A stretch of DNA of 64,000 nucleotides from Candidatus Pacebacteria bacterium CG2_30_36_39 (lineage in GTDB: Bacteria; Patescibacteriota; Microgenomatia; UBA1400; PJMF01). The notes under the pieces were generated by a model. That model was not told where the DNA came from. It saw only the letters and a list, made by a program, of their open reading frames with translations, and searched no databases. The stretch spans positions 206,031 to 270,030 of the forward strand of contig MNZB01000003.1 of NCBI GenBank assembly GCA_001873435.1, read 5' to 3'. The translations under genes were made by a program, and so were the position numbers. Below are positions 1 to 50,253 of this stretch, piece after piece (the first letter of the stretch is position 1; each line of letters begins with the position of its first letter).

Positions 1-1737
1 TGGATAGTAATAACATCAGTCATATTGTCCAAGTTTTCACCATTGACTGTAAATTTTTTGACTGTGGCACAGTCTTTTTGTTTACCACACTCAGTAAAAG
101 CATCAACAAACATAAAGCTACCATCGCCAACATAGGCAACATTGGTGTCATTAATTCTTTTTGGATCTGAGTTTTTAAAGTATCCTTTTAAATCAACATT
201 TAGAATTTTGGTGTTTTCCTTATTATTGAAATCAAGAATTTTAACTGCTCCAGTTTCATAATTTGTTAACCACATATATTTGCCGTCATAGGCAAGGTTG
301 CTGATATTCATTTTTTCAAATTCTGTGTCACCTAGTTTTTCTAATTTATCTGTTGGTAAATCATAGATATAGATACCATCACTAAAAACGCTTACTTCGC
401 ATGGCTCTGAACCACTACAGGTTTTTTCTTGAGACACTGGTCCTTTGATAATTAACCTGTCATAGCTGATGTAGCCACCAGCAAAAGTCCAAGCGGTAAC
501 AATGGGTAGCTTTTTGACAGTCAAAGTACTGCCGTCACATGACAAAGTGTAGATACGCCAATCCTCGCCAGTTGCTTTGCCATAGATAACTGCATGGGTC
601 TCATTTTGGAAGCGAGCAGCAATAGGATCATATGGGTAAGAAACGCTATAAAGTTCAATTGGTTTGTTGTCGTAACGTACTAATTGTCTACCACAAGCAG
701 AGTCAGGTGTTTGGAAAAAAGCGCCATCATGACCACCATAAACTATGGCTGTGCCTTGTGGAGAGATGACATAGTAACTATCGTCTGGCGCAGTGACTTG
801 ATCATAAACTTTTTCAGAATAACCGTTATAACTTACAAATGGGTCGTATTTATATAAGGCTCCACTTTTGACATAAAAAAGTTTGTTGTCACGAATCTCA
901 AATTTCTTGGGAAAACTTGCGTCATCCCAAATATTACTACCAGTAAAACGAATGTTTTCAGCTGGATCATAGAGAACCAGTTGCCTATTTTGAATTCCCA
1001 CCAACTTTTTTGGTTTATACTCTCTGAGTCCCATGGTTACAGTAGTGCCCTCTGGGGAGACCTTTAGTTCTTTGAAGGTGGTAGGAAACAAACCTGTGAC
1101 TCCATTAGATGATTCAAAGATTTGGTAATATTTTTGACCAAAAAAGTGTTGGTCAGCTGTTGGGCCATACTCATTATTGTAAGGACTCAGATAATAGGCT
1201 ACTTCATAATCGCCTTTGTCCAAGCCACTAAGCATAATTACTCCCTCGCCATCAGTTTCTAAGCTGATAAAGGGAAGTGTTTCTCCTTTGCGGCGAACAT
1301 TGATGCCTACTCCATCCTGGCCTTTTTCCCATTGTTCTTGTTTGCCATTGTCATTTAGATCAAACCAAAACTGGAATTTAACCATGCCAGCCGAAACTTT
1401 TTCTTCTGTACCAAACTTAGCAAAAAGCGTTTCTCCAATATCTGGCAAAGCCTGAGTTTGTTCTGGAGTTGGAGTTTTTTTCCAGGATGCTTTGGCATAA
1501 AAACCAACAGAGAAGAAGAATAATGCTATTAGAAAAGCACCAAAAATCCACATGGCAATTTTGATCATGCGTTTTCTTGCTATTTTTTTATCAGCATCAT
1601 CGTTGAAAGATTTTAGAATTGAAGTACCACCAGGATTTGTTTGTTCAGTTTTTGTTTCTTCTGGTTGTTCCAACCTAATTTTTGGAGTTGGAGAAACTTG
1701 GTTACTAGAGAAGGGTGAGCGTTGGAAAGAATCCATG
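1..1737 (-). CDS. Large N-terminally membrane-anchored extracellular protein; partial, runs off the window start
   Basis: Open minus-strand frame from ATG (revcomp of CAT at 1735-1737) to the window edge. The N-terminus has a charged stretch followed by one TM helix (IAMWIFGAFLIALFFF). The rest is Gly/Tyr/Asp-rich and repeat-like. It is not in the ORF track because it is truncated by the window. Confidence 0.45.
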
Positions 1738-1836
1738 TGTCTTATTATACGCACAATTTAATAATAAAAGAACAAATGGAGTTTTTTCAAAAAACTTGGT
1801 AATTATTAATATTTGTTAATTATAGATAGAAGAGCT

Positions 1837-1877
1837 CTGTAAACGTGAAAACAGGGTGGCTTTTGGCCACCCTGTTT
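1837..1877. terminator. 41-bp hairpin repeat, copy 1 (ctgtaaacgtgaaaacagggtggcttttggccaccctgttt); intrinsic terminator downstream of minus gene 1904..2452
   Basis: An 11-bp perfect stem (AACAGGGTGGC/GCCACCCTGTT) with a 5-nt loop. On the minus-strand RNA the stem is followed by UUUU. An identical copy lies at 2638-2678. Confidence 0.6.
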
Positions 1878-1903
1878 GTTTCTCACAAAGCACACAGGTG
1901 GGA

Positions 1904-2452
1904 TTAATCTTGCTTTCGGGCTACGGCAGCTGACAGCGCTGTAACCTTTGCAACTTTGCTTTTCTTGCGGCTCAGCGCGTTGCGTTCGCGAGTCATTTCC
2001 CGGATATTTTTCTGTAACTGATCGGTTTCCCGTTCAGCCATCTGCTCAACTTGTTCCGGAGTTTGTTGAAGCAGAACCAGGAGCTCTCTGGCTCCTTCGG
2101 TCACGTCCTTGACTTCTTTGCGAGCGGTTCGCAGATCCTTGCGCAGAACCTTGTTTTTCTTTTTTTCCTCTTCGAGCGCAGCCTGAGCTGCGTCTCCGAG
2201 TTCAACTCTTTCGAGGAGTCTGGCATTTTCAGCCATAAGAGCCTCGTATTCGTCGAGAGAAACAAGATCATCGAAGGTTGCCGCCAAGCGTCCGAAGACT
2301 TGCTTGTTGCCAGCCCATTGGGCGACTGATTTGGCGGTATTGCGAATTTTCCACTCGGTCCAGAAAGCGAAGAACTCAGAAAGCCAATGGCTAACTTTGT
2401 TCTGGCTCAGAACGATTTGTTCGAACTTCTTGACTTGGATGGGTTCGTCCAT
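1904..2452 (-). CDS. Hypothetical Ala/Glu/Arg/Lys-rich coiled-coil protein (unit A of the GC-rich module)
   Basis: 182-aa ORF in a ~57% GC region. A GAGGTG SD lies 4 nt upstream of the ATG. A promoter sits upstream and the hairpin terminator downstream. No recognisable catalytic motif. Confidence 0.5.
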   Translation of the reverse strand: MDEPIQVKKFEQIVLSQNKVSHWLSEFFAFWTEWKIRNTAKSVAQWAGNKQVFGRLAATFDDLVSLDEYEALMAENARLLERVELGDAAQAALEEEKKKNKVLRKDLRTARKEVKDVTEGARELLVLLQQTPEQVEQMAERETDQLQKNIREMTRERNALSRKKSKVAKVTALSAAVARKQD

Positions 2453-2555
2453 AGATCACCTCATGATTCTTGAATTAATCCTGTGTGTTGTGAAGGTGCG
2501 TCTTTGCGCGCTTGACTCCCATACGGGAATTGTTGCAGGCATCGACACATCTGTA

Positions 2556-2584
2556 ATTATAGCACAATAAGCCTATAATATCAA
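2556..2584 (-). promoter_or_regulatory. Sigma70-like promoter for unit A, read on the minus strand: TTGATA-17 nt-TATAAT with an upstream TG (extended -10)
   Basis: Revcomp of 2551-2590 reads ctaTTGATAttataggcttattgTGcTATAATtacag. The spacer is 17 nt. It lies about 100 nt upstream of the start at 2452. Confidence 0.5.
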
Positions 2585-2637
2585 TAGTAGAGATGTATTG
2601 GTTGAGTTTGAAAAAGAACGAAATTTATATATTTTGG

Positions 2638-2678
2638 CTGTAAACGTGAAAACAGGGTGGCTTTTGGCCACCCTGTTT
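2638..2678. terminator. 41-bp hairpin repeat, copy 2; intrinsic terminator downstream of minus gene 2746..3288
   Basis: Identical to 1837-1877. The stem-loop is followed by a T-tract on both strands (ttttgggg on plus). Confidence 0.6.
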
Positions 2679-2745
2679 TGGGGTATTACACTTGCACGGA
2701 GGAGAGAGGATCCAGCGCTATTCGATTGTAGCCGAGAGCCGCAGG

Positions 2746-3288
2746 TTACGCGCTGAGTTTTGAAGTCAGGGCGCGGACCTTGCGAGCCGAGGAGGTTGCC
2801 GAGCGGGACTGGCGGATGGTCTGGTTCACGAACGTCATGGAGACGGTCGCTTCCTTCTCAGCCTGTTCCATCCACTTGTCAACCTGATCGGGACTGATCT
2901 TGGCGAGTGTCAAGACCGTCTCGAACGCTTCTTGCTGTTCGCCGGCGAGGGCTTCAGCGCGTTCAGCGCGGGTCTTCATCGCGGGATATTTGTCCGCCAC
3001 GGCTTTGGCGCCGGCGAGAGCCTTGTTCAGGCGCTCGATTTCCTTGTTCGCGGTGCTGAGTTGGGACTCGAGACTGCGGACTTCGGAAATGTGGGCAAGG
3101 TGCTTCGGGAAGGAAGCGGCGATGCGACCGAATGAATCGGCATCGTGCAGGTCGGTCAGAGCGCCGAAGGCGGTCTGCAGATTGCTGGCTTCCTGGCGGG
3201 CTGCCAGGTTGGCGCGCATGGAGGCAAAGTTATCGGACAAGCCGAAAACGCCGGACGCGGGGACGATGGGTTCAAAAGTTTTGGTCAT
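2746..3288 (-). CDS. Hypothetical Ala-rich coiled-coil protein (unit B of the GC-rich module)
   Basis: 180-aa ORF at ~60% GC. An AGGAG SD lies 7 nt upstream of the ATG (revcomp of 3289-3310). It has its own promoter and terminator. The composition resembles phage scaffold or phasin-like proteins, but there is no diagnostic motif. Confidence 0.5.
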   Translation of the reverse strand: MTKTFEPIVPASGVFGLSDNFASMRANLAARQEASNLQTAFGALTDLHDADSFGRIAASFPKHLAHISEVRSLESQLSTANKEIERLNKALAGAKAVADKYPAMKTRAERAEALAGEQQEAFETVLTLAKISPDQVDKWMEQAEKEATVSMTFVNQTIRQSRSATSSARKVRALTSKLSA

Positions 3289-3349
3289 GGGTAGTACTCC
3301 TTGAGTTTTTTTTGGCTATTTAAAGCCGAATATGCAGTTTCACCTTTTT

Positions 3350-3423
3350 CTGAGTGCAGCGCACTCAGTATTTGGATTACGCAGTCAAAAACCTAAAAAT
3401 AAGTTTCTCACTGCGCAATCCAA
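3350..3423 (-). promoter_or_regulatory. Palindromic elements in the long 5' leader of unit B: a hairpin at 3350-3368 (ctgagtgc-agc-gcactcag) and a 14-bp inverted repeat at 3372-3385/3410-3423
   Basis: The hairpin has two perfect 8-bp arms (CTGAGTGC/GCACTCAG) around a 3-nt centre. TTGGATTACGCAGT pairs with ACTGCGCAATCCAA with one mismatch across a 24-nt spacer. Both lie between the predicted TSS (~3538) and the start codon at 3288. They could be operator-like or RNA structural elements. Confidence 0.3.
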
Positions 3424-3545
3424 TTTGGATCACAAGCAAAAAAATCAAAGAAGTAAAAACCTCTTTTCTATGTGCAATGTAAATGTGCGGTTGTTAGTGC
3501 CTTAGTGCATCGTAGTGATGCGTTAGGCGACTGACAACGAGGGGA

Positions 3546-3574
3546 AGTATAGCAAAATGAGCCTATAGTGTCAA
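3546..3574 (-). promoter_or_regulatory. Sigma70-like promoter for unit B, read on the minus strand: TTGACA-17 nt-TATACT
   Basis: Revcomp of 3541-3580 reads ctaTTGACActataggctcattttgcTATACTtcccc. The spacer (ctataggctcattttgc) is near-identical to the unit A promoter spacer (ttataggcttattgtgc). Confidence 0.5.
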
Positions 3575-3838
3575 TAGTTAAAATTATATCTGGTAGTGTA
3601 TTAGCAGTTTACCAGACTAAATATATATTTTATATTGTTATTATATATTTGTTATAAGACTGTTATTTCTATTACTATAACTATATATAAGTAGTCTTTG
3701 CTGACTAATTTGTGTTACTATATATTTGTAGTAAGCCAGTTGATTATCATTTTTCTTGTTTTTTATTGTGTGTCGTAATATTCACTTTTAAACAAAAAGC
3801 GAATGGGCTTAACTACCTAAAATGGATGAAAAAATGTT

Positions 3839-5812
3839 ATGAACACTCACGAATTTGTTGAATTTATTCTTTTTATTGGTATTTTTTTTACGGTTGCATC
3901 TCTATTGCAAGTGTTTGTAGAGAAAGTTAAATTCCCCTACACCGTTGCACTATTGATTTTGGGATTTTTTGTTCAATACCTCTCAAGAGTTTTTCATATC
4001 CCAATCCATGCAGAGCTAACTCCGGATTTTATTTTTTTCTTTCTTCTTCCCATTCTTTTGTTTGGGGCAGCAATGCATATTCGTTTACATCAATTCAAAC
4101 TCCAATTTAAAACAATAGCTTTTGCCGCTACCTTTGGTTTACTGTTATCAATTTTAATTGTGGGATTGGGAACAACTTGGTTATTGGGCTTACCCATAGA
4201 AGGAGCTTTTCTTTTTGGAGCTCTAATTTCTGCCACAGACCCAATTGCTGTTTTAGCAATTTTTAAAACTTTAGGCGCTCCCAAACGTTTATCTTTATTA
4301 GCAGACGGTGAAAGTATGTTCAATGATGCTACAGCCGTTATTTTATTTAGAATCTTAATTACCATAGTTTCTGGTGCGACTGTTTTTTCTAGTTATACTT
4401 TAGTTGAAGGTGTTGAAGAATTTTTTTATGTTTTCTTTGGTAGTATTGCTGCTGGACTAATCTTAGGCTATGGAGTGAGTTGGTTGGTTTCAAAAATCAA
4501 TAACTATGCTGTAGAAATGACTCTAACCATTGGTGCAGCTCTAATTGCCTTTACTGGTGCTGAATATTTTTTTCATCTATCTGGGGTTATTACTAGTGTA
4601 ATAGCTGGATTAGTAGTAGGAAACATGGGCAGATCTCGTTTTTCACCAAGTGTTGCCCATTTTATTAGCGAGCTATGGGAATATCTGGGTTACTTGGCTG
4701 TATCTGTGGTATTTTTCTTTGCTACTTTTTCACTTGATACAACTCAATTTTTATATAATCCGACTCGTTGGATGTTAGCCATAGGAATTGTGATTGTTGC
4801 CAGATCAATTTCTACTTATTTAACCTATGCCATTAGCAATGTTTTACCACTATTCAAAGATGAACCAACTGTGCCACTTAATTGGCAACATGTTCTCAAT
4901 TGGGGTGGATTGAGAGGAGTTATTCCACTGGTATTGGTTTTTTCTATTCCAGACTCTGTTTGGTATAAAGAGGATTTAACAATCTTTACTTTTGCAGTTT
5001 TATTATTTTCACTTTTTGTTAATGGCTTAACAATCAAATATTTATTAAAGTTTCTTGGTTTAAACATAACTAAAAAAGAAGTTCAGATTGCACAAATAGA
5101 AAAAGATATTTTTCGAATAGAAAAAGCTAAAAACATTCTCGCCTCTTTACCTAGTGGTGAATTTAATATTACCAATCTTAATGAAATGGATATTTTATTA
5201 AAAAATGAAGAAGCTTTGTATAAAAAACAATTAGACTCATTAGTAACAGTTGAGAGCTTAGAAAAGAGTTTGAGACTTGAGTTCATTTCTTTGCAACGTG
5301 AACATCTTGAAAGTTTATTTTGGCAGGGTTACGTAAGTGAAAATGTTATGTTGGAATTTGATGCGCGACTTGATTTATTGGAGGATGCTTTGGAATATCC
5401 AGAGGTATATAACAAAGAAAATTTTCGTTCAAAAAGCAGAATTACCGAGCGTGAATTATTTCGTAAACAATTATCTAGAGTGCGTCGAATCATGAGACGT
5501 TTGCCGTTTATTAAGAGACTTTTATTTAATGAAAACCAGCATTTGGTCACTGAACGCTTCTATTTACTCAAAGCCAGAATTATCACTAGCCGTGAAGTGC
5601 TCAAACAAATTGAAAGACTAGTTCCTTTATTTGCCAAAGAAGAAGCTGTGAAAGTATTGAAGAGTTTACAAGAAGAACATGAGATTTATATTGTCGATAA
5701 TACCTTAGAAATTAAAGAATTAAGACGTAAATATGGTAAATGGATTGATGAGTGTCAACAAAAATTATTAAGAAAGCTAATTCATCCCATTAACCCAAGT
5801 TTTATTGATTGA
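3839..5812 (+). CDS. Na+/H+ (cation:proton) antiporter, CPA1/NhaP-type, with a C-terminal cytoplasmic regulatory domain
   Basis: 657 aa. The N-terminal ~400 aa are polytopic membrane protein with NhaP-like motifs (ATDPIAVLAIF, GESMFNDA). The C-terminal ~250 aa are soluble. Confidence 0.75.
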   Translation: MNTHEFVEFILFIGIFFTVASLLQVFVEKVKFPYTVALLILGFFVQYLSRVFHIPIHAELTPDFIFFFLLPILLFGAAMHIRLHQFKLQFKTIAFAATFGLLLSILIVGLGTTWLLGLPIEGAFLFGALISATDPIAVLAIFKTLGAPKRLSLLADGESMFNDATAVILFRILITIVSGATVFSSYTLVEGVEEFFYVFFGSIAAGLILGYGVSWLVSKINNYAVEMTLTIGAALIAFTGAEYFFHLSGVITSVIAGLVVGNMGRSRFSPSVAHFISELWEYLGYLAVSVVFFFATFSLDTTQFLYNPTRWMLAIGIVIVARSISTYLTYAISNVLPLFKDEPTVPLNWQHVLNWGGLRGVIPLVLVFSIPDSVWYKEDLTIFTFAVLLFSLFVNGLTIKYLLKFLGLNITKKEVQIAQIEKDIFRIEKAKNILASLPSGEFNITNLNEMDILLKNEEALYKKQLDSLVTVESLEKSLRLEFISLQREHLESLFWQGYVSENVMLEFDARLDLLEDALEYPEVYNKENFRSKSRITERELFRKQLSRVRRIMRRLPFIKRLLFNENQHLVTERFYLLKARIITSREVLKQIERLVPLFAKEEAVKVLKSLQEEHEIYIVDNTLEIKELRRKYGKWIDECQQKLLRKLIHPINPSFID

Positions 5813-38412: not shown

Positions 38413-40311
38413 TTACTCAGAAATTGGTTCTGTCGGTGATTCTGTTTGAACAGGTGGCGAAATTTCTGTCATTATTTCCTCAACTACTTTTGCTAATTTC
38501 TCGAGATTCTTTTTTGAAGTGTTATCTAATTCATTCAATGTAATAGTACCGTCCTCCACTGCGTTAAAGAAACGAACTGCAAGTAACCCCTTTGATTCTT
38601 TCTTTGTCGGGTGTTTCATATACGTAGAATTCTCTTTAGAAATATCCTTGATATCAATCTGAGCAATCAATTTGGCAAAATTGTCTTTGCTGAAAACATC
38701 TTCTATGCCTTTGCAACCAGGAATTACACGTAAGATTTTGTCTAGTCTTTCTTTTAGTACGTCTCCCGGATATACCTCTTTTCGAACTTTTTCTAGAGTT
38801 TTTCTCCCACTGTCTTCATCATCAACTAATACGCCATATGTAATGCCCCAACCAAATAAAAGGCGCGCAAGTTGAGGTATTGTTGTTGTGCCATTGGCTG
38901 GAAGCAAATGAACATTTTTAATATTTTTGAGCTTGAAAAGTGCTTGTAGATAATAGCAAACACTTACTTCTTCAACAATTATATTGTTCGTTTTATCAAT
39001 AACATTTTGATTAGCAAAACTGCTACCCATGCAATCAAAAATTGGAGTCAATGTATCAGATGATAATGCCCCTAATTGATGTGCACTGAAAACACGCGTG
39101 TTGGCCAAACTATAGTCGTCTCCTTCAATGGTTTCTCTTTGAGCCGCAATTATCCTGTAAAGTCTAGTTAGGTCAAGCAAGTGGTGAGTATGTGTTGTAT
39201 AGATGACTTGAATATTTTTTTTAAGTGTTTCAAAAACTCTTAGTACATCTTCTTGTGCTTTAGCGTGAAGACTACCAGCAGGCTCATCAATTAGGAGTAT
39301 TAAATCTTTTTTAACACCATCGCTGTCCTCACTTTGTTTTTCACTTCTAACTGAACAAGCTTTTAATTGCAAATAAAACGACAAGAACCAGAGCAATCCT
39401 TTGCTTCTTTGTCTTGGGGAGAACTGCACCCCATTCTCAGCTATCCAAAAACTCAAATATGATTCTCCAACAAGCTCTGGTTCATCTTTACCATGTCTTT
39501 GGAAAACAACCTGAATTTCTAGCTCGTCACGATTGCCAATTTTTTGTGACCAAAATTGCCTAAAGTCAGCTGTGAACGAGCGGTATTTTTTTCCTAATTG
39601 GTTGTTTCTCAATCTATCACTAAGTAGTTCAAGCTCATCAACTTTAATGTCTAAAATTTCCAATAGATTCAAAACACCATGTAGTCCTTCAGTTTTGGGA
39701 TTTTTTTTGATGACATCTTTAATGTCAATTTTATCTGGAAGTAAGCTTTCAAAATCTACAAATTTTTGAAATTCAGGTAGAGATGAAACAACTCGGTCAG
39801 TAAACTCTTTAGCCGTTAGTTGTTTCACTGTTGGTTCTGGAGGAGCTGTTGGAGTCTCTGTTTTAGTTTCTCCCACAGTTTGTTTTTCAGCTGGTTGCGG
39901 TTCTGATTCTGGAGGAGCTATTGGAGCAAAAAGTGTTTCTAAATCAAGAAAGTTGATTTTTACTTCGTTCTTTGTCAGTGTCGACCAATTTCTAGTTAAT
40001 GAAATCCTGTTTTCTGCTTCTTTAATTTTTGCCTTCAATCCTCTTGGCAGTTCTCCCTCTTCAAAATTTTCATCAAACCAAGCTTTTTGAATCCTAAAAA
40101 CACAAGTAATCTCTGGAAAGCCGTCTTCTCGTAAAGCATCTGGATTAAGTTTTCCCGTTGAAAATGTTTCAAGCGCCTCGAGTATCGAAGTTTTGCCAGA
40201 CTCATTTTGTCCGATAATTGCTGAAATATTGTCTGCTGGAAAATTAAAAAAACCAGTATTCTGAATCGACTTAAAATTTGAAATTTTGCATGAAATCAAC
40301 TGAGTTCTCAT
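38413..40311 (-). CDS. OLD-family (overcoming lysogenization defect) ABC-type ATPase + TOPRIM nuclease; candidate anti-phage defence protein. A fused PARIS AriAB-like assignment is an alternative.
   Basis: 632 aa. Walker A GQNESGKTS. ABC signature/Q-loop region RSKGLLWFLSF. Walker B/D-loop LILLIDEPAGSLH. H-loop YTTH. C-terminal TOPRIM-like Glu (IIVEEVSV) and DxD (VLVDDEDSG). A Pro/Thr/Glu-rich low-complexity insert (APIAPPESEPQPAEKQTVGETKTETPTAPPEPT) sits inside the ATPase domain. No UvrD-like helicase partner is adjacent. Confidence 0.6.
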   Translation of the reverse strand: MRTQLISCKISNFKSIQNTGFFNFPADNISAIIGQNESGKTSILEALETFSTGKLNPDALREDGFPEITCVFRIQKAWFDENFEEGELPRGLKAKIKEAENRISLTRNWSTLTKNEVKINFLDLETLFAPIAPPESEPQPAEKQTVGETKTETPTAPPEPTVKQLTAKEFTDRVVSSLPEFQKFVDFESLLPDKIDIKDVIKKNPKTEGLHGVLNLLEILDIKVDELELLSDRLRNNQLGKKYRSFTADFRQFWSQKIGNRDELEIQVVFQRHGKDEPELVGESYLSFWIAENGVQFSPRQRSKGLLWFLSFYLQLKACSVRSEKQSEDSDGVKKDLILLIDEPAGSLHAKAQEDVLRVFETLKKNIQVIYTTHTHHLLDLTRLYRIIAAQRETIEGDDYSLANTRVFSAHQLGALSSDTLTPIFDCMGSSFANQNVIDKTNNIIVEEVSVCYYLQALFKLKNIKNVHLLPANGTTTIPQLARLLFGWGITYGVLVDDEDSGRKTLEKVRKEVYPGDVLKERLDKILRVIPGCKGIEDVFSKDNFAKLIAQIDIKDISKENSTYMKHPTKKESKGLLAVRFFNAVEDGTITLNELDNTSKKNLEKLAKVVEEIMTEISPPVQTESPTEPISE

Positions 40312-40459
40312 AGCTAGTGCCTCTACTATTCAATATTACGATGTTTTGGGCAGGTTACCATGAGATAATGGTTTAGCATTCACTATAGCACTTTTCTTGT
40401 GCTGCAAAAGAGCAAATTAATTTATATCCAATAATTCTGTGTCAAGTTCACCTGAACAC

Positions 40460-41182
40460 TTAAAATGAAAACGAAATTTCGGCTCCATTTTTTTTTAGTT
40501 TCATAAATCCTGGCAAGCCATGTGTTTCACCAAAATCATCAGTATAAATATCATCACCGCCAAATCTATCAATTTTGAAACCCAAATTCTTGAATTTATC
40601 ATCGTCCATATCAAGTCGATGTAGCGGATAATCAAATAAGATTTTGAAGTCTTCATCTTCGAAAGTACCCTCCTTGTACTTAAGGCATGGACTAAGAACC
40701 CATGCTCTGTTTCCATCAGCAAACTTAATCAGGCGTTCATACACAGAAAATTCTAAGTTAGGCTCAAACCCATCTTCATCACCAGCCACAATTGAAGAAT
40801 ACAACAAGTTGGTTGTGCCGTCTCTTTTCACGAGACCACTAAGGTTGGAACCGTTGTTATTGGTCGAAACAAAGTAGACATTCTCACCCACCAAATAGTG
40901 AAAGTGAACATAAGCTCTATTGCCAAGTTTCTCTCTGTATTTTTTGTGCCATAGTTCGTTATCTGCTTTACTCCAATCCTTATAGGGTTTGCCTGCACTC
41001 TTAATTCCAGTGAGTTCTCCAAACTTTGGATGACTCATTATTGCCTCCATAACATTCACATTGAAGCTTGTTGAGAATCCAGGGCCTCGCTCATCCTCTA
41101 TTTTTTCAAATCTTTTACTTATAGAGGAGGAAATGCTGTATAAAGAGAATCCGACAACGGCGGTAAAAATGTATGACCACAT
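40460..41182 (-). CDS. Hypothetical membrane-anchored protein (N-terminal TM + ~210-aa soluble domain)
   Basis: 240-aa ORF. N-terminal helix MWSYIFTAVVGFSLYSI. The soluble part is rich in D/E/F/G with no known motif. Immediately upstream of the OLD-like gene in the same orientation. Confidence 0.4.
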   Translation of the reverse strand: MWSYIFTAVVGFSLYSISSSISKRFEKIEDERGPGFSTSFNVNVMEAIMSHPKFGELTGIKSAGKPYKDWSKADNELWHKKYREKLGNRAYVHFHYLVGENVYFVSTNNNGSNLSGLVKRDGTTNLLYSSIVAGDEDGFEPNLEFSVYERLIKFADGNRAWVLSPCLKYKEGTFEDEDFKILFDYPLHRLDMDDDKFKNLGFKIDRFGGDDIYTDDFGETHGLPGFMKLKKNGAEISFSF

Positions 41183-41252
41183 GATGATTATTTTACATCA
41201 AACGATTTAATCTTGCCAGATGAACAGCACTCTCAAATGATATAATTACCTC

Positions 41253-41906: not shown

Positions 41907-41909
41907 TGT

Positions 41910-42428
41910 TTACTCTGGAATAACTACTTTTAATTCTTTAATTGCTTTACTAAGGGCAGGTTTTAGCCTATGTGAAATACTTGTGAGCTGTCCACCATGA
42001 TTCCTTTGTATTTCTTGATTATGTGTGTAAAGGTTTATTTCTTCGTTGTATAGAGCAACTTCGTTATAAAGACTAATCAAGGATTTTTGTTCTTCAGGTT
42101 TCCACCAATATAAATACATTTTCGTTGATTCCCATGCCGAATCCGGAAATCTCCTATTCCTTGGTAGGTCCTTAACCATATCACTCATCTGCATAATCTC
42201 AGCGTGAATCCAATTCTTGGCTTGTTCAACTCTTTCCATTTTTTCTCTTTCGTCTTTAGCTCTCTCTTTTTTTGCCCTTTCTAACTCTGTTTTTTGAGAC
42301 TGTTCTACCGTGGCATCAATGCTTTTCCTTGTAGCCCAGATAGTTGCAAGGGCACCTGCAGCAGAGCCAATTACACCACTTCCTAATGAGAGAAACACTT
42401 GAAACCAGTCAATCATATTAATGTTCAT
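41910..42428 (-). CDS. Hypothetical TM + coiled-coil protein; last gene of the hydrolase-NTase operon
   Basis: 172 aa. N-terminal TM (WFQVFLSLGSGVIGSAAGALATIWA) then a K/E-rich coiled coil. Start overlaps the upstream gene's stop by 4 nt. Confidence 0.4.
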   Translation of the reverse strand: MNINMIDWFQVFLSLGSGVIGSAAGALATIWATRKSIDATVEQSQKTELERAKKERAKDEREKMERVEQAKNWIHAEIMQMSDMVKDLPRNRRFPDSAWESTKMYLYWWKPEEQKSLISLYNEVALYNEEINLYTHNQEIQRNHGGQLTSISHRLKPALSKAIKELKVVIPE

Positions 42429-43489
42429 TTATATTCCTCCGGCAACTCAATCCCAAACCTCTCACAAAGTGCTTTAACATCATGGAAGTCGCTCGCTCTC
42501 AGCTTATATCCTGTATGAAATTTGACCATCCACTCTGGAGAAATACACTTCACCTCTATATTGTCAACACAACCTTTGCCGCTAAGTGCATCTTTATGAT
42601 AGGAATTGCCGTTTTCTACTGGGCCATAAATACCATTGCCATTTTCATCTAAATTAATAACATGAAAATCAACGAATCGAGCATTTTTGTCACCCATGAT
42701 AAAATTCCAGTCGGTTTCATCACCTCTTTTTACTCGATTAAAACCTCTTACTTTAAGTAGATTAACTACGGAAGTCACGTCCTTTTGTTGAAGAACTAAA
42801 TCAAGGTCACCATGAGCTCTAGTTTGCTTCTCCAATAGAGCATCAACGCCCCAGCCACCATCAAGCCAAAATTCAATATTTTTATCTTTGAATTCTTTTA
42901 TAAGTTCCAACACATACTCCTCTGTCATTGCATCACCCGCGATATGATGCAAAAGAAAAGGAAACTGTCTATATGCTTCGCCAAATGTGCCAACGCTAAA
43001 ATGCTTTTGTCCTGGCAAAACAATTAAATCGCCACCAATTTTTTCATATAGGTATTCAGCGTGCTCGAGAGGGCAATAGGGGTCATTATCTGAGTGGATG
43101 AAGTACCATGTCAGAGACTTTGAATTAATTTTCTTAAAGTCAAATGGTGTGATGAAAAGGTCTTTAAGAGAATCCCATCCCAAATCATCTTTGAATGAAC
43201 CCACTAAGTAGCAGGCTTTGACAACAACACCCTCTGGCAATGCTTGCAAAAGACCGAGAGTAGCTACAGCCCCTGATGAGTGACCAATGATTGTGGTCTC
43301 CTCATCAAACTTCCAGTTTTTGTTGCTCAAAATGAATTCGTTATATCTCTGAATATTGGGTTTATCAGCTCCAGGCAAGTTAGGTGTCCAAACCTCGTAA
43401 CCTCGTGACTTTAATTCAGTCTCAAGCCAAGGAAACCAATTTTCTTGGGAATTGCCGTTTGTGCCGTGGAGGATGAGCGCTTTTTTCAT
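42425..43489 (-). CDS. Fusion protein: N-terminal alpha/beta serine hydrolase (RBBP9/YdeN-like) + C-terminal ANT(2'')/Lnu-type nucleotidyltransferase
   Basis: 354 aa. N-terminal ILHGTNGNSQENWFPWL with nucleophile elbow GHSSG. The C-terminal half aligns to ANT(2'')-Ia: WLDGGWGVDALLEKQTRAHGDLDL vs WIGGGWAIDARLGRVTRKHDDIDL. Its tail VKCISPEWMVKFH compares with VRCNSWEAIIWDY. Confidence 0.7.
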   Translation of the reverse strand: MKKALILHGTNGNSQENWFPWLETELKSRGYEVWTPNLPGADKPNIQRYNEFILSNKNWKFDEETTIIGHSSGAVATLGLLQALPEGVVVKACYLVGSFKDDLGWDSLKDLFITPFDFKKINSKSLTWYFIHSDNDPYCPLEHAEYLYEKIGGDLIVLPGQKHFSVGTFGEAYRQFPFLLHHIAGDAMTEEYVLELIKEFKDKNIEFWLDGGWGVDALLEKQTRAHGDLDLVLQQKDVTSVVNLLKVRGFNRVKRGDETDWNFIMGDKNARFVDFHVINLDENGNGIYGPVENGNSYHKDALSGKGCVDNIEVKCISPEWMVKFHTGYKLRASDFHDVKALCERFGIELPEEYK

Positions 43490-44001: not shown

Positions 44002-44335
44002 ACAGTATGCCTACATTAACCTCTGATTGGTTAACAACGGCATGTGGTAAATATGAAGGCACTTCAATTAGTAAAATTTGCCCATCTGGGTGCATATGTT
44101 CTTCATACTTTGCGCCATTTTCATCTAGCCACACAAACAGTAAGTCACCAATACCAATGAACCATTCTGTTCTTGGATGTTTGTGATTGCCACCAATACT
44201 CAAAGGTGCTAAGTGAACTATCTGTTGGTCTTTGATTTTTTCCTTACCAACAGGAATGTCATCTGTGTTGAGTACCCAGACATCGGTATCAGGTTTTTTG
44301 TAGGTGTAATTTAGTTTGGTGATGATAGGTGTCAT
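43946..44335 (-). CDS. Cupin-domain protein
   Basis: 129 aa. Cupin His/Glu motif region (GGNHKHPRTEWFIGIGDLLF ... HAVVN). The 3' end overlaps the PNPOx-like gene by 56 nt in another frame. Confidence 0.45.
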   Translation of the reverse strand: MTPIITKLNYTYKKPDTDVWVLNTDDIPVGKEKIKDQQIVHLAPLSIGGNHKHPRTEWFIGIGDLLFVWLDENGAKYEEHMHPDGQILLIEVPSYLPHAVVNQSEVNVGILFEMADGKMVDVEKIEVYE

Positions 44336-44340
44336 GTTAT

Positions 44341-45264: not shown

Positions 45265-45542
45265 ATAAGCTTCATTTTAACTCAAAAAAGCTCTACACCA
45301 AAACCAATATTGCAAAGTATGCAAAAATTCACAACATAAATAATCGCTAGTTGAGGTATAATATCCCCATAACAAAGAGATGACCTAAACTTGGTTTTTC
45401 GAAATCAGGCATGGTCAAAAAACTCACAACGGTTAAAGCCCCTCGCTGGGGAATTCGTTGTGAGTCGTACAGGGAAACTTGTGCGGGTGGAGACACCTAA
45501 ACCGGCGGGGGACTTTTGCGTCTTCCGGCCGAAAAGGCCGCA

Positions 45543-46238
45543 ATGAAAAAACTACGACAACTAATTACATCAATTCTTCCAGCAGTTTTATTATTGCTTT
45601 TAATTGGTACTGGTGTAGCCTTTGCACATTACCGCGAGCAACAAATCACTCAACGTGTTCAACTTGTGGTTTCACCAACCCCAACATTAAAACCAACCTC
45701 AAATCAGTTTCCAAGGGCAACCCCATTACCAAACACTGTACAACCAACCACCAAAAAAGCTTTTGACAATATTACTTGTACAGGGCCTGACGGTAAGCAG
45801 TTCCAAACTACTCAGAAAGAATGTGAAAACTTCAACGCCGCCTGGGGCAACACCTCTAAAACTCAACTAGCACCTGCTGATTTACCAAGTCAACAAAAAT
45901 ACACTGAAACCCAAAATGGACAAAAACAGCCACCTTGTACCGTTGGTGGTTATACCTATTATTACACTGACCCCACTACTTGTGCCCGTTGGCAACAAGA
46001 ACAAAAAGAATTTGAAGAATCACTAAACAATATACAGTACGTTTTTACTCCACCAGATACCACGACTATTCAACCAGATAATACCGTAGCGAAAGAAGCT
46101 TGCAAGTCCGCCGCACAATCCGAATATAACTCAGCAGTAGCCGCTGCTCAAACCTATGGCGGCAATGTGCAGACTGCAGCATTAGAGATTACTCGCAATG
46201 ACCTTAATTATAAACTTGGAAAATGTGAAGGCTTATAA
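45543..46238 (+). CDS. Secreted Thr/Gln/Pro-rich protein with conserved Cys pairs
   Basis: The ORF track starts at 45516 (TTG). The ATG giving MKKLRQLITSILPAVLLLLLIGTGVAFA is a classic signal peptide and has an AAAGG SD, so it is the likelier start. The mature protein has 6 Cys. Confidence 0.45.
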   Translation: MKKLRQLITSILPAVLLLLLIGTGVAFAHYREQQITQRVQLVVSPTPTLKPTSNQFPRATPLPNTVQPTTKKAFDNITCTGPDGKQFQTTQKECENFNAAWGNTSKTQLAPADLPSQQKYTETQNGQKQPPCTVGGYTYYYTDPTTCARWQQEQKEFEESLNNIQYVFTPPDTTTIQPDNTVAKEACKSAAQSEYNSAVAAAQTYGGNVQTAALEITRNDLNYKLGKCEGL

Positions 46239-46239
46239 A

Positions 46240-46563: not shown

Positions 46564-46624
46564 TATGCAAAACTCACTTCGGAGTGTCTAGTCTGATAGT
46601 CTTTTCTTCAAGCCTCTATCTCAA

Positions 46625-48702: not shown

Positions 48703-50253
48703 ATGAAAAATAAAAAAGAAACAATCAATATAAATAGAGCCTGTCTATATCTAAGGTTTAGCGATGATAAGCAAATTGGTGGAACATCAATTGCAGTTCA
48801 AAACAAATCATGTCGTGACTACTGCGCAATACATGAATGGAAAGTAGTAATAGTTGAGAAAAACGAAGCAGTCACAGCTAAAACCTCAAATATCCGTAGA
48901 GTTGCAGAATTACTAGAATTTTGCAAAAGAAATAAGGGTAAATTTGAGGTACTCGTGGTCTTCAAGCTTAATAGATTTGCTCGAGACCAAGCAATGCACC
49001 ATTATCTGAGGTCAGAACTTCTAAAATTAGGTATTTTATTACGTTCTGCCACTGAACCAATAGATGAAACTCCAATGGGTAAGTTAACTGAAGGAATATT
49101 AGCTGCTTTAGCTGAGTTTGATAATGGTGTTAAGTCTGAAATGGTTAAAGCAGCTCTTTGGCGCAGAGTTGAGGAAGGCATGTGGCCATGGCATCCGCCA
49201 CTTGGCTATATGTCAATTCGTCAAAAGGATGAGAAAGTGAAAGCTCACGTACCAGACCCAGGGCTTGAGCAAGCAATTATTGACCTTTTCACCAGTTTCT
49301 CAACGGGCACTGTCTCTCAATTCGATTTGTCAAAAGAGTATGCAGCCAAGAAATTAACAGACTATAAAGGGAGAACAATTAAATTTTCACCCCAGTCGGT
49401 CAATAATATTCTTAACAACCGCTACTATATGGGAATCTTGGTTCATGAAGATGGCAGGCATATCCAAGGAAAGCATAAAGCTATTATTAAGCCAAGTTTG
49501 TTTGAGAAATGCCAGTATATCTTGCACAAAAAGTCTAATGGCACCGCTGGAAGTCAACGACTGCACGATAACCCAGAATTTCCCTTGAAACCAACCTTGC
49601 GCTGTGCAAGTTGCAAGGAGTTATTGACGGCTCAGTTTTCCAACTCTGCAAGAGGTACTAAGCATCCTCATTACTTTTGCAGAAATAATAAGTGCAATTT
49701 ATTTCGTAAAACGTACAAGCGGTCAAAATTAGAGAATGAGTTTGGCATCTATTTGCGACAAATTAAACCAACTAAAGAGTTTGTAAAGCGGTTCCAGGAG
49801 AGATTCCTGGACCGCTACAAAACCCGTGAGCTAGACCTAAAAGGTGAGTATTTGCGAAAGCTTGGAGATGTGCAAAAACTCGAGAAAGACCTTAAGTTTG
49901 TTATTGACCAAGGTAAGAAGGGAGTTTTGAAAAATGACACTTTCAAGAATGCTATTGAGGAAGTTGAATCAAAGCTTAGTTTAGCAAAAATGTCACTGCG
50001 AGAAACTCATGGAGAAGAGATTGACGTTCAGCTTTTGATGGCTTATGCGGAGAGCTTTATTCAAACCATTGAAAAAGTCTGGTATGACGCTCCATTTGAG
50101 ATTAAGAAGAAAATTCAGAATTTTGTTCTGCCTGGTGGCGTTTACTTAACTAAGACCAGAGAAGGCTATTTTTTTTCGAACCCTCAATTAGGTGGATTGT
50201 TCCAACTAATTCAGGATTTTGGTGCTGATGATTCAACTGTTGTGACCCCATAG
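48703..50253 (+). CDS. Large serine recombinase (integrase)
   Basis: 516 aa. Resolvase catalytic domain with the Ser nucleophile in YLRFSDDKQ. Recombinase domain. Zinc-ribbon Cys cluster (CASCKELL...HYFCRNNKCN). C-terminal coiled coil. The last 11 nt overlap the 3' end of tRNA-Glu. Confidence 0.8.
   Translation: MKNKKETININRACLYLRFSDDKQIGGTSIAVQNKSCRDYCAIHEWKVVIVEKNEAVTAKTSNIRRVAELLEFCKRNKGKFEVLVVFKLNRFARDQAMHHYLRSELLKLGILLRSATEPIDETPMGKLTEGILAALAEFDNGVKSEMVKAALWRRVEEGMWPWHPPLGYMSIRQKDEKVKAHVPDPGLEQAIIDLFTSFSTGTVSQFDLSKEYAAKKLTDYKGRTIKFSPQSVNNILNNRYYMGILVHEDGRHIQGKHKAIIKPSLFEKCQYILHKKSNGTAGSQRLHDNPEFPLKPTLRCASCKELLTAQFSNSARGTKHPHYFCRNNKCNLFRKTYKRSKLENEFGIYLRQIKPTKEFVKRFQERFLDRYKTRELDLKGEYLRKLGDVQKLEKDLKFVIDQGKKGVLKNDTFKNAIEEVESKLSLAKMSLRETHGEEIDVQLLMAYAESFIQTIEKVWYDAPFEIKKKIQNFVLPGGVYLTKTREGYFFSNPQLGGLFQLIQDFGADDSTVVTP

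What the first reader, a model, noticed from the sequence alone, without database searches (positions are those of the whole stretch)
1837..3590. GC-anomalous 1.75-kb module of two tandem, fully equipped transcription units in an AT-rich genome
GC jumps from ~33-35% to ~55-60% exactly between 1837 and ~3560 and then drops back. Inside are two minus-strand units with the same architecture. Each has a near-consensus sigma70 promoter (TTGATA/TTGACA-17-TATAAT/TATACT) whose spacers are near-identical, a strong SD (GAGGTG / AGGAG), a ~180-aa ORF, and an identical 41-bp hairpin terminator. The ORFs are Ala/Glu/Arg/Lys-rich, coiled-coil-prone and carry no catalytic motif. Their composition is reminiscent of phage scaffold, phasin or structural proteins. 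This looks like a horizontally acquired (phage- or high-GC-donor-derived) expression module, a selfish two-gene element, or an assembly chimera. It would not be found by homology-based annotation.
Basis: seen in the sequence. Interest (0 to 1): 0.75.

Follow-up and report, generated by a model that had tools for sequence, protein, structure and literature searches.

The report
Armoured-mRNA genes for orphan coiled-coil proteins
Two real, tandem genes for unknown helical proteins in an AT-rich candidate-phyla-radiation bacterium keep a GC-rich codon usage and appear built for very stable, heavily translated mRNAs whose two ends pair; related strains swap the cassette, and it is neither an assembly artefact nor a phage insert.

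Summary
Window 1837-3590 holds two minus-strand units, each with a promoter, leader, Shine-Dalgarno site, ~180-aa ORF and terminator. An exact 41-nt repeat marks both terminators. GC3 is 0.75 (B) and 0.54 (A) against 0.28±0.05 for 55 other ORFs.

It is not a chimera. Independent JGI, Logan, ENA and GTDB assemblies of Patescibacteria carry the same module at the same syntenic site. A and B are distant paralogs under purifying selection (dN/dS about 0.2). They form an orphan family: a handful of clusters among 15 billion proteins, with no phage, plasmid, Pfam or fold match.

The GC3 anomaly persists in orthologs down to about 30% identity. Polarised synonymous changes are balanced, and one degraded copy has fallen to host GC3. 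Selection therefore maintains it; it is not a residue of import.

New finding: all 13 units examined share a covarying 5' stem-loop and a 12-23-bp helix predicted between the leader and the 3' UTR next to the terminator. The closest known case is B. subtilis hbs mRNA.

The module diverged far less than its flanks (dS 0.14-0.45 versus 1.3-3.2). In near-identical genomes a different "C-type" ORF replaces it, so it is exchanged within the clade.

Protein function is unknown.

The parts
3546..3577 (-). Unit B promoter: -35 TTGACA (3569-3574), 17-bp spacer, TG-extended -10 TATACT (3546-3551). The core ATTGACACTATAGG is invariant in all B/C-type units.
3289..3539 (-). Unit B 5' leader, about 250 nt and highly structured (MFE -87 kcal/mol, z = -7.1). 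The same modular architecture is seen in all B/C-type units.
3490..3538 (-). Unit B 5'-terminal stem-loop. It has compensatory changes and sense-strand G-U pairs across 9 sequences.
3460..3482 (-). Unit B leader motif (UUACAUUGCACAUAGAAAAGAGG), predicted to pair with the 3' UTR at 2686-2709.
3374..3421 (-). Unit B long leader hairpin: 12-bp basal stem plus 9-bp apical stem. The shape is conserved with different sequences in other loci. Candidate RNase III or regulatory site (inference).
3350..3368 (-). Unit B second leader hairpin: 8-bp stem with a 3-nt loop.
3297..3302 (-). Unit B Shine-Dalgarno site, AAGGAG, 8 nt upstream of the ATG at 3288.
2746..3288 (-). ORF B: 180 aa, an orphan all-helical protein with a basic C-terminal tail. 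GC3 0.75, dN/dS about 0.2-0.28.
2686..2709 (-). Unit B 3'-UTR motif (CCUCUCUCCUCCGUGCAAGUGUAA) that pairs with the leader at 3460-3482. It lies directly upstream of the terminator.
2638..2679 (-). Unit B intrinsic terminator: hairpin arms 2649-2661 and 2667-2679, a U-tract, and the conserved tail CACGUUUACAG. This is copy 2 of the exact 41-nt repeat.
2556..2587 (-). Unit A promoter: -35 TTGATA (2579-2584), 17-bp spacer, TG-extended -10 TATAAT (2556-2561). Paralogous to the B promoter.
2453..2549 (-). Unit A 5' leader, about 97 nt. It contains a 5' stem-loop (2497-2549), the pairing motif (2479-2494) and the SD GAGGUG (2457-2462).
1904..2452 (-). ORF A: 182 aa, a distant paralog of B (24% identity, shared FGR[LI]AA[ST]F motif). 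GC3 0.54. Synonymous sites are unusually conserved, and the ORF folds better than synonymous shuffles (z = -4.9).
1882..1903 (-). Unit A 3'-UTR motif (UCCCACCUGUGUGCUUUGUGAG) that pairs with the leader at 2479-2494.
1837..1877 (-). Unit A intrinsic terminator: arms 1849-1860 and 1866-1877, a U-tract and the tail. This is copy 1 of the exact 41-nt repeat.

Best explanation
This is a clade-restricted expression locus of Patescibacteria (CPR) bacteria. It carries two paralogous orphan genes, B and A, for all-helical, coiled-coil-like proteins of about 180 aa with basic C-terminal tails.

Each gene is an autonomous monocistronic unit. The units look built to produce a long-lived, efficiently translated mRNA. 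The features are:
- a consensus, TG-extended sigma70-type promoter;
- a stem-loop at the very 5' end;
- a single-stranded leader motif that pairs over 12-23 bp with a motif just upstream of the terminator hairpin, so the two mRNA ends are clamped beside two protective hairpins;
- a strong SD in an unstructured A-rich tract;
- a GC-rich ORF with C-ending codons, folded about twice as stably per nucleotide as host genes;
- a covarying intrinsic terminator.

Selection maintains the GC anomaly at synonymous sites. It is not a leftover of foreign origin.

The whole cassette is exchanged by recombination among related lineages. At the same site it alternates with a deeply divergent 'C-type' allele that has the same mRNA architecture.

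Shown: the genes are real, conserved and syntenic; the codon anomaly is persistent and at equilibrium; the structures covary; cassette replacement occurs.

Inferred: high expression, mRNA stabilisation by the 5'/3' clamp, and the structural (self-assembling, possibly nucleic-acid- or membrane-binding) role of the proteins.
For: Coding status and selection: substitutions are concentrated at third codon positions (48 versus 17 and 15), and dN/dS is 0.16-0.28.

Not an artefact: the same B->A tandem sits between murF and the 'MDSFQRS' membrane-protein gene in independent JGI, Logan, ENA and GTDB assemblies.

Rarity: 3 and 2 clusters among 5.8 billion proteins. A profile search of 1.84 billion representatives adds 2 more, and a second profile search adds one fragment.

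GC3 persistence:
- B-type 0.66-0.81 and A-type 0.47-0.54, in hosts of 0.22-0.32, down to about 30% amino-acid identity.
- Codon usage is C-ending (CGC 85%, GGC 83%, ATC 83%, TTC 88%; no TTA, AGA or ATA) with GAA kept at 65%.
- Polarised synonymous changes are 16 S>W against 17 W>S.
- A frame-disrupted A copy in L017 has GC3 0.36.

RNA features:
- The B leader has z = -7.1.
- The 5' stem-loop has 4 of 18 pairs with compensatory changes, plus G-U pairs.
- The terminator has 8 of 11 pairs with compensatory changes.
- The 5'/3' helix in all 13 units has dG -11.6 to -20.6 kcal/mol and z -3.5 to -9.4 (0-6 of 1000 shuffles as good).
- Cognate pairings beat 20000 of 20000 permutations.
- The helix appears in the whole-mRNA MFE of 8 of 8 units.
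- ORFs fold better than synonymous shuffles (mean z -2.9, versus -1.2 for host controls).

Precedent: B. subtilis hbs mRNA has a 14-bp 5'/3'-UTR interaction that modulates RNase Y cleavage (PMC5737220).

Exchange:
- dS is 0.14-0.45 for the module against 1.3-3.2 for six flanking genes.
- Identity between L001/L002 and L014 drops sharply from 90-100% to random level, from about 75 nt into the leader to inside the downstream 87-aa gene.
Against: - There are no expression data. Promoter strength, transcript ends, mRNA half-life and protein abundance are all inferred.
- The 5'/3' helix is almost purely Watson-Crick (2 G-U in 204 bp), and the antisense duplex is equally stable. Wobble pairs therefore do not prove that it acts in the sense RNA rather than as a DNA-level inverted repeat.
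- Other presumably well-expressed genes (enolase, pyruvate kinase, L19) show no C3 shift, so ordinary translational selection is not an obvious cause of the codon bias.
- The synonymous-shuffle test is also negative on average for host genes, and one control reaches -3.8.
- dN/dS of about 0.2 is high for a typical very abundant protein (a comparison from my own knowledge).
- The structure models are of low confidence (pLDDT 51-56).
Confidence: 0.6

Rival explanations
1. The 5'/3' pairing and the long leader hairpin are a repression or processing device rather than a stabiliser. The full-length mRNA is held translationally inert or awaits cleavage (for example by RNase III at the ~22-bp hairpin), as in hok mRNA fold-back inhibition or the S. 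aureus icaR 3'-UTR/5'-UTR pairing. Expression would then be conditional.
For: - B/C-type leaders carry a ~22-bp hairpin of conserved shape, long enough for RNase III (the length requirement is my own knowledge).
- B 3' UTRs contain CUCCUCC, an anti-SD-like sequence.
- The region upstream of the promoter is conserved to about -90, suggesting regulation.
- There is an icaR precedent (PMC3868564, listed).
Against: - In the predicted helices the 3' motif pairs with a leader motif about 170-200 nt (B) or about 20 nt (A) upstream of the true SD, which stays in an unstructured A-rich tract.
- The CUCCUCC pairing is weak in the sense strand because of C-A mismatches.
- A-type leaders lack the long hairpin.
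Confidence: 0.15
2. The GC-rich composition is a mutational by-product of GC-biased gene conversion at a recombination hot spot. It does not reflect selection on codons or mRNA.
For: The locus clearly recombines: the trees are incongruent, cassettes are replaced, and the two terminators are 41/41 identical in this genome but differ in L001.
Against: - The shift in GC3 (0.28 to 0.75) is far larger than gBGC effects reported in bacteria (own knowledge).
- C greatly exceeds G at 4-fold sites (for example GGC 83% versus GGG 3%; CGC 85% versus CGG 6%), and GAA is retained. This is codon-specific, not simply AT-to-GC.
- The leaders and spacers inside the exchanged block remain AT-rich.
Confidence: 0.08
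3. The complementary motifs that flank each ORF are DNA-level inverted repeats, meaning recombination or transposition sites of a mobile cassette, and not RNA pairing partners.
For: - The pairing is almost purely Watson-Crick and is strand-symmetric.
- The 5' breakpoint of the B+A versus C replacement falls at the leader motif.
Against: - The 3' breakpoint is about 200 nt beyond the terminator, inside the next gene, not at the 3' motif.
- The flanks of the motifs covary between units rather than being conserved as a recombinase site would be.
- No transposase or integrase lies within 10 kb.
- The motifs sit exactly between the 5' stem-loop and the terminator of a transcript.
Confidence: 0.07
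4. A recently acquired foreign module: a phage moron or a gene pair from a high-GC donor that has not yet ameliorated.
For: - The units are autonomous (promoter, ORF, terminator) and deviate in GC, which are the features of morons as I recall them.
- There are weak sub-threshold hits to phage scaffold profiles.
- An 11-nt identity to the SP6 RNA-polymerase promoter core lies inside the promoter (sequence; SP6 consensus from my own knowledge).
Against: - No relatives in 50,697 phage records, 72,556 plasmids or PHROGs at significant scores.
- The promoter pattern is absent from IMG/VR.
- No phage genes are nearby.
- The anomaly persists at equilibrium in orthologs whose dS reaches about 1 and in family members at about 30% identity.
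- The site is syntenic across the clade.
Confidence: 0.05
5. An assembly chimera that joins high-GC reads into an AT-rich contig.
For: Only the abrupt compositional change.
Against: The same junctions and gene order occur in independent assemblies from different projects and assemblers (JGI 3300014060, 3300007988, 3300009868; Logan SRR35206414, SRR9016298, SRR21707642; ENA; GTDB MAGs).
Confidence: 0.01

Closest known systems
Bacillus subtilis hbs (HBsu) mRNA with a 5'/3'-UTR interaction (Braun, Durand & Condon 2017, PMC5737220)
   Same: - A monocistronic mRNA with a highly structured 5' UTR and a strong SD.
[quoted passage not shown]
- In hbs the interaction modulates endonuclease access and supports stability.
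   Different: - The proteins are unrelated (HU fold versus an orphan helical protein).
- Here the helix is flanked directly by a 5'-terminal stem-loop and the terminator.
- The ORF has an extreme GC3 shift.
- The pairing is conserved and covaries across three cargo types.
- Nothing here has been tested experimentally.
Staphylococcus aureus icaR mRNA 3'-UTR/5'-UTR pairing (PMC3868564), and hok mRNA fold-back inhibition (own knowledge)
   Same: A 3'-UTR segment base-pairs with the leader of the same mRNA.
   Different: - In icaR and hok the pairing occludes the SD or translation-activation element and represses translation. Here the true SD is not the predicted partner.
- There is no small toxin and no evidence of an antisense RNA.
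Phage 'morons' (autonomous promoter-ORF-terminator insertions with deviant GC; own knowledge of Hendrix/Juhala)
   Same: Self-contained transcription units with a composition unlike their neighbours.
   Different: They are not in a phage or prophage. They sit at a conserved chromosomal site, have no phage homologs, and their composition is maintained over deep divergence.
Hyper-stable mRNAs of very abundant proteins: E. coli ompA and lpp 5' stem-loops, B. thuringiensis cry mRNA STAB-SD plus 3' stabiliser, Lactobacillus S-layer slpA leader (own knowledge)
   Same: A strong promoter, a 5'-terminal hairpin, an SD-like element in the leader (B-type, about +75) and a strong 3' hairpin. Together these point to high, durable expression.
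   Different: An explicit 5'/3' clamp, a codon-composition island in an AT-rich genome, and cargo with no signal peptide and no known function.
Hypervariable allelic loci exchanged by recombination between conserved flanks, such as flagellin, pilin and S-layer cassettes or O-antigen loci (own knowledge)
   Same: Near-identical flanks with unrelated or deeply divergent central alleles (B+A versus C); gene trees that conflict with the flanking genes.
   Different: The products show no export signal. The conserved 5' anchor is the promoter plus the first ~75 nt of the leader RNA rather than a coding region.

Membership tests
Sigma70-type promoter | -35 and -10 hexamers close to TTGACA/TATAAT with a 16-18-bp spacer | tested here: met
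   11 of 12 matches, a 17-bp spacer and a TG extension for both units. The hexamers and TG are conserved in all loci, though the scan pattern required part of this.
Sigma70-type promoter | Transcription start mapped downstream of the -10 box | not testable with these tools
   No RNA data.
Intrinsic (Rho-independent) terminator | GC-rich hairpin followed by a U-tract, on the transcribed strand | tested here: met
   A 12-13-bp perfect stem followed by UUUU. 8 of 11 stem pairs show compensatory changes across 11 terminators. The U-tract is short (4 U, then CACGUUU).
hbs-type 5'/3'-UTR clamped mRNA | [quoted passage not shown] | tested here: met
   Prediction only. 12-23 bp in 13 of 13 units, z -3.5 to -9.4; present in 8 of 8 whole-mRNA MFE folds; cognate pairings beat 20000 of 20000 permutations.
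hbs-type 5'/3'-UTR clamped mRNA | The pairing protects against RNase cleavage or raises mRNA stability | not testable with these tools
   Needs half-life measurements with pairing mutants.
icaR-type 3'-UTR anti-SD repression | The 3'-UTR motif pairs with the SD of the ORF | tested here: not met
   The predicted partner is the leader motif just after the 5' stem-loop, and the true SD remains unpaired.
hok/sok-like type I toxin-antitoxin | A small hydrophobic toxin ORF plus an antisense RNA | tested here: not met
   The ORFs are 167-198-aa soluble helical proteins (GRAVY -0.3 to -0.7). The antisense RNA was not tested.
Phage moron | An autonomous promoter-ORF-terminator unit with deviant composition | tested here: met
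Phage moron | Located within a phage or prophage genome | tested here: not met
   The neighbours are murF, a Na+/H+ exchanger and membrane proteins. There are no phage, IMG/VR or PHROG relatives.
Integron gene cassette | An adjacent integron integrase and attC recombination sites | tested here: not met
   No recombinase within 10 kb. The only recombinase in the window is a serine recombinase about 45 kb away. The swap breakpoints are not at the repeats.
Pfam Phage_scaffold (PF06810) / DivIVA (PF05103) | Score at or above the Pfam gathering threshold | tested here: not met
   16.6 bits against 35, and 17.2 bits against 28. These are generic coiled-coil similarities, as are the hits to SMC, Rad50 and JetC arms and to ZapB.
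Phasins (PHA granule proteins) | A match to a phasin profile | tested here: not met
   No phasin family is listed, even at E <= 1.
Any Rfam cis-regulatory leader | A match at or above the gathering score | tested here: not met
   Only sub-threshold chance hits in 1500-4000, and none at gathering score anywhere in the window.

The most novel reading that the evidence does not exclude
CPR bacteria of this clade keep a dedicated, conserved 'expression site' made of a promoter, the first ~75 nt of a structured leader and a terminator. Deeply divergent allelic cassettes (B+A or C) are swapped into it by recombination. Each cassette carries its own covarying 5'/3' mRNA clamp and a selection-maintained C3-rich codon island. 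On this reading it is a previously undescribed system for making very large amounts of a fast-evolving, interchangeable coiled-coil protein from an armoured mRNA. The purpose might be interaction with the host cell or with phages. The unexplained SP6-like CTATAGG core and the non-host codon usage also leave open that the transcripts are made by, or meant for, a different transcription or translation machinery.
Probability: 0.25. Interest if true: 0.85.

Novelty: new variant of a known kind. Interest (0 to 1): 0.66.

Why it matters
1. It is a clean natural case of a gene whose synonymous composition is held about 9 SD from its genome (GC3 0.75 against 0.28) across deep divergence. That makes selection on codon or mRNA composition directly testable in a lineage thought to have weak translational selection.

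2. It adds a phylogenetically supported, covarying 5'/3'-UTR clamp to the very few bacterial examples (hbs, icaR, hok). It also suggests a general design for long-lived mRNAs in ribosome-poor ultra-small cells.

3. It flags an orphan protein family and a recombining cassette locus. These are probably among the most highly expressed and fastest-changing features of these uncultured episymbionts, so they are good candidates for host- or phage-interaction studies and for metaproteomic markers.

4. The promoter, leader and terminator set is a candidate genetic part for future CPR genetics.

Tried and rejected
Protein searches that gave no family assignment:
- Pfam, PHROGs, PADLOC and NCBIfam scans of A, B and C-type proteins gave only sub-threshold coiled-coil noise.
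- A PDB sequence-profile search gave ZapB, protein A and GCN4-type coiled coils at E >= 4e-4.
- AlphaFold2 models of B and A had pLDDT 56 and 51, all helical. Foldseek of the B model against PDB found nothing at E < 2. No further fold searches were run because the models are too poor.
- hhalign of A/B against C-type gave a probability of 0.8%, so homology is not detectable.

RNA and collection searches:
- Rfam found no family for the leaders.
- Phage and plasmid BLAST searches found nothing.
- The promoter pattern is absent from IMG/VR.
- The bare 14-mer ATTGACACTATAGG hits more than 120 viral contigs, almost all as single matches. I took these as chance and uninformative.

Analyses with weak or biased results:
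- RNAduplex with whole leaders gave weak z-scores because of unrealistic long loops. I replaced it with 30-nt windows and whole-mRNA folds.
- The synonymous-shuffle structure test is only suggestive, because host controls are also negative on average.

Literature:
- Searches for CPR codon-usage or expression reports of such genes found nothing relevant.

Readings considered and rejected:
- Non-coding RNA instead of ORFs: rejected by codon-periodic substitutions.
- A functional antisense ORF at 2900..3304 (+): explained by the avoidance of TTA, CTA and TCA codons in B.
- Integron, IS or MITE cassette: no recombinase nearby, and the breakpoints are not at the repeats.


Full report
**1. Observation**

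The sequence at 1837-3590 is as described.
- GC in 200-nt windows climbs from about 0.33 to 0.45-0.62 between about 1800 and 3300.
- No other 1-kb bin of the 64-kb window exceeds 0.42.
- Two minus-strand ORFs are present: A (1904..2452, 182 aa) and B (2746..3288, 180 aa).
- Each ORF follows a promoter matching 11 of 12 sigma70 consensus positions, with a 17-bp spacer and a TG extension (3574..3546 and 2584..2556).
- Each ORF is followed by one copy of an exact 41-nt repeat (1837-1877 and 2638-2678; none expected by chance). The repeat holds a 12-13-bp perfect hairpin and a short U-tract.
- The promoter and terminator motifs occur nowhere else in the window.

Two refinements apply.
- The high GC is confined to the ORFs and terminators. 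The B leader is only about 36-40% GC.
- The anomaly sits at synonymous sites. GC3 is 0.746 (B) and 0.536 (A), against a mean of 0.280 (sd 0.054) for 55 other ORFs, so z = 8.7 and 4.8.

**2. Real genes, and not a chimera**

A and B are distant paralogs: 24% identity over 128 aa, with a shared FGR[LI]AA[ST]F motif at the same position.

Homologs are extremely rare.
- Searches of 5.8 billion proteins found 3 clusters for B and 2 for A.
- A profile search of all 1.84 billion 50%-identity representatives added only two more 177-aa members.
- A final profile search added one fragment.

The contigs that encode these homologs come from independent projects and assemblers (JGI, Logan, ENA). All show the same B->A tandem in the same neighbourhood: upstream are flavodoxin, pyruvate kinase, a DNA-alkylation-repair gene and murF; downstream are an optional 87-aa gene and the membrane-protein gene beginning 'MDSFQRS'. 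This rules out an assembly chimera.

Between orthologs, substitutions pile up at third codon positions (for example 48 against 17 and 15), and dN/dS is 0.16-0.28. These are therefore translated genes under purifying selection.

A scan of GTDB species genomes with the B-promoter pattern recovered the locus in Patescibacteria MAGs. Two of them are titled 'Pseudomonadales', evidently mislabelled. The same promoter type appears upstream of other genes in a WWE3 MAG and in a Patescibacteria SAG. The host is therefore a CPR/Patescibacteria bacterium.

**3. The composition anomaly is maintained, not residual**

- In every relative, B-type ORFs have GC3 0.66-0.81 and A-type ORFs 0.47-0.54, while the neighbouring genes have 0.22-0.32. 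This includes family members only about 20-30% identical to the window proteins.
- The bias is codon-specific. C-ending codons dominate (CGC 85%, GGC 83%, ATC 83%, TTC 88%, ACC 74%). TTA, AGA, ATA and CTA are absent. C greatly exceeds G at four-fold sites, and GAA stays at 65%. From my own knowledge, this is not the pattern of a typical high-GC donor genome.
- Synonymous changes polarised with an outgroup are balanced: 16 strong-to-weak against 17 weak-to-strong. This indicates compositional equilibrium in a genome whose own equilibrium is about 0.25.
- One A-type copy (L017) has a disrupted N-terminal frame, and its GC3 has fallen to 0.36.
- Enolase, pyruvate kinase and ribosomal protein L19 in the window are not shifted. 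The cause is therefore not a general expression-linked codon preference of this genome.

**4. A conserved mRNA architecture**

Non-coding parts are at least as conserved as the ORFs.

The B leader (about 250 nt) folds with -87 kcal/mol and z = -7.1. Leaders of all B/C-type units are 282-302 nt from the -35 box to the start codon. They share the following modules:
- a 5'-terminal stem-loop;
- a single-stranded CA-rich motif;
- a small U-rich hairpin;
- a ~22-bp hairpin whose sequence differs between lineages but whose shape is kept;
- one or two GC hairpins;
- an unstructured A-rich tract that carries the SD.

The 5' stem-loop has 4 of 18 pairs with compensatory double changes, plus sense-strand G-U pairs. 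The terminator has 8 of 11 pairs with compensatory changes across 11 terminators.

The new observation concerns the motif right after the 5' stem-loop. It is complementary to a motif just upstream of the terminator hairpin in every unit of every type.
- Using 30-nt windows, all 13 units give duplexes of 12-23 bp, with dG -11.6 to -20.6 kcal/mol and z -3.5 to -9.4. At most 6 of 1000 shuffles do as well.
- The variable parts covary. Cognate 5'/3' pairs are much better than cross-type pairs, and the cognate sum (-157.9) was never reached in 20000 permutations, whose mean was -100.1.
- Minimum-free-energy folds of eight complete predicted mRNAs (690-907 nt) all contain this helix, with 14-20 bp.
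- In the window, the partners are 3460-3482 with 2686-2709 (B) and 2479-2494 with 1882-1903 (A).

One caveat: the helix is almost purely Watson-Crick (2 G-U in 204 bp), and the antisense duplex is equally stable. Wobble pairs therefore cannot assign it to the sense RNA. Its position between a sense-specific 5' stem-loop and a terminator is the argument for that assignment.

The ORFs fold about 1.6-2 times more stably per nucleotide than host ORFs. They also fold better than synonymous-codon permutations of themselves (z -1.3 to -4.9, mean -2.9). Host controls average -1.2, with one at -3.8. This result is suggestive and is strongest for A-type ORFs. A-type ORFs also show unusually low synonymous divergence: pS 0.13, against a p-distance of about 0.27 in the adjacent non-coding spacer (my count from the alignment) and pS 0.34 in B.

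**5. Exchange between lineages**

Between the window genome and the L001/L002 genome, six flanking genes are 43-83% identical in amino acids, with dS 1.3-3.2. B is 87% identical (dS 0.45) and A is 94% identical (dS 0.14). The B tree groups window, L001 and L005 against L004. The MurF tree groups L001 and L004 against the window.

The clearest evidence comes from L001/L002 and L014.
- These genomes are about 90% identical through murF and 98% identical through the promoter and the first ~75 nt of the leader.
- They are 94-100% identical from inside the downstream 87-aa gene onward.
- Between those points the sequences are unrelated.
- L014, L012 and L016 carry a single 'C-type' ORF there instead of B+A. 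It is 167-180 aa, acidic (pI 4.8-5.3), with GC3 0.52-0.73.
- C shows no detectable homology to A/B (hhalign probability 0.8%).
- C nevertheless has the same leader modules, its own covarying 5'/3' helix and a terminator.

The locus therefore behaves as a conserved expression site with recombining, deeply divergent alleles.

**6. Proteins**

A and B are Cys-free, Ala/Glu/Lys/Leu-rich and mildly basic. Their last 30 residues carry a net charge of +2 to +7 (+7 and +6 for the window's A and B). AlphaFold2 predicts five helices at low confidence (pLDDT 51-56).

Foldseek, PDB profile, Pfam, PHROGs, PADLOC and NCBIfam searches give only sub-threshold coiled-coil similarities: ZapB, DivIVA, phage scaffold, and SMC/Rad50/JetC arms. 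There are no relatives in phage or plasmid collections.

Function is therefore unknown. My inference is an abundant, self-associating structural protein whose basic tail may bind nucleic acid or membrane.

**7. Mechanism proposed**

Each unit appears designed to give a long-lived, heavily translated mRNA, through these features:
- a consensus extended -10 promoter;
- a 5' hairpin;
- a 5'/3' clamp stacked between that hairpin and the terminator, which would hide both ends from exonucleases and limit endonuclease entry;
- a strong SD left accessible;
- a GC-rich, compactly folded ORF in an organism whose RNases presumably prefer AU-rich single strands.

The closest documented analogue is B. subtilis hbs mRNA. 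There, a 14-bp 5'/3'-UTR interaction modulates RNase Y cleavage of a highly structured leader (PMC5737220).

Expression level, stabilisation and protein role are inferred. Gene reality, conservation, covariation, codon equilibrium and cassette exchange are shown.

Rivals are:
- a repressive or processing role of the pairing, as in icaR or hok;
- GC-biased gene conversion;
- DNA-level inverted repeats of a mobile cassette;
- recent foreign or phage origin;
- assembly chimera.

Each is weighed in the rivals section. The last two are essentially excluded.

**8. Unexplained**

- The preference for C over G at third positions is not accounted for.
- CTATAGG immediately 3' of the -35 hexamer is invariant. 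This creates an 11-nt identity to the SP6 RNA-polymerase promoter core (TGACACTATAG; the SP6 consensus is from my own knowledge). It may be coincidence with TTGACA or a regulator site.
- The tail CACGTTTACAG after the terminator is conserved.
- The selective force behind allele swapping is unknown.

**9. Verdict**

This is a new variant of known kinds: a 5'/3'-clamped stable mRNA, and a recombining allelic cassette locus. It encodes an orphan CPR protein family and carries a selection-maintained codon-composition island.

Interest: 0.66.

Noticed in passing
window 38413-50314: Probable integrated genomic island beside tRNA-Glu (50242-50314). It contains a large serine recombinase (48703..50253), an OLD/AbiEii-like AAA ATPase (38413..40311) and an aminoglycoside-2''-nucleotidyltransferase-like fusion (42425..43489). 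Its ORFs have mildly raised GC3 (0.36-0.38, against a 0.28 mean).
   Followed up: partly
window 45382-45497 (+): Rfam LOOT RNA (RF03000), 77 bits against a gathering score of 46.4. It lies inside the putative island, just upstream of ORF 45516..46238.
   Followed up: no
L012 3867-4409: The C-type ORF of MAG Betzabe_MAG183 has an in-frame TAA where the near-identical L014 has CAA. This splits it into 89-aa and 86-aa ORFs, and could be a pseudogene, a sequencing error or read-through.
   Followed up: partly
L017 2220-2890: The A-type unit has a disrupted N-terminal reading frame (only a 148-aa ORF remains). Its GC3 has dropped to 0.36, close to the host's 0.28-0.31. This is consistent with decay of the codon bias once selection is relaxed.
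   Followed up: partly
L013, L014 (GTDB records CAYPPX010000007.1, CAYSQA010000012.1): MAGs titled 'uncultured Pseudomonadales' carry the AT-rich Patescibacteria murF-cassette locus. They are probably mislabelled or mis-binned.
   Followed up: no
L015 123-513 (-); L011 5413-5442 (+): The same promoter core (ATTGACACTATAGG-N6-TTGnTATnnT) occurs in two other places. In a WWE3 MAG it precedes an 87-aa Cys-rich, GC-rich ORF with its own terminator. In a Patescibacteria SAG it lies between infB and the next gene. It may be a clade-wide strong-promoter signature.
   Followed up: partly
window 3562-3574 and 2572-2584 (-): CTATAGG / TTATAGG is invariant immediately 3' of the -35 hexamer. In unit B, TGACACTATAG is identical over 11 nt to the SP6 RNA-polymerase promoter core. 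Sigma70 promoter requirements do not explain this.
   Followed up: partly
window 1837-1847 and 2638-2648 (-): The tail CACGUUUACAG after the terminator U-tract is conserved in most relatives, beyond what termination needs.
   Followed up: no
L009 ~935-990; L008 ~95-170: Some B-type leaders contain an SD-like sequence followed by a short ORF (for example 16 codons in L009). These may be leader peptides, but they are not conserved in the window.
   Followed up: no
window 2900-3304 (+): A 134-aa antisense ORF lies opposite B (similar ones lie opposite C-type ORFs). It is explained by the absence of TTA, CTA and TCA codons in the sense frame, so it is not evidence of a gene.
   Followed up: partly
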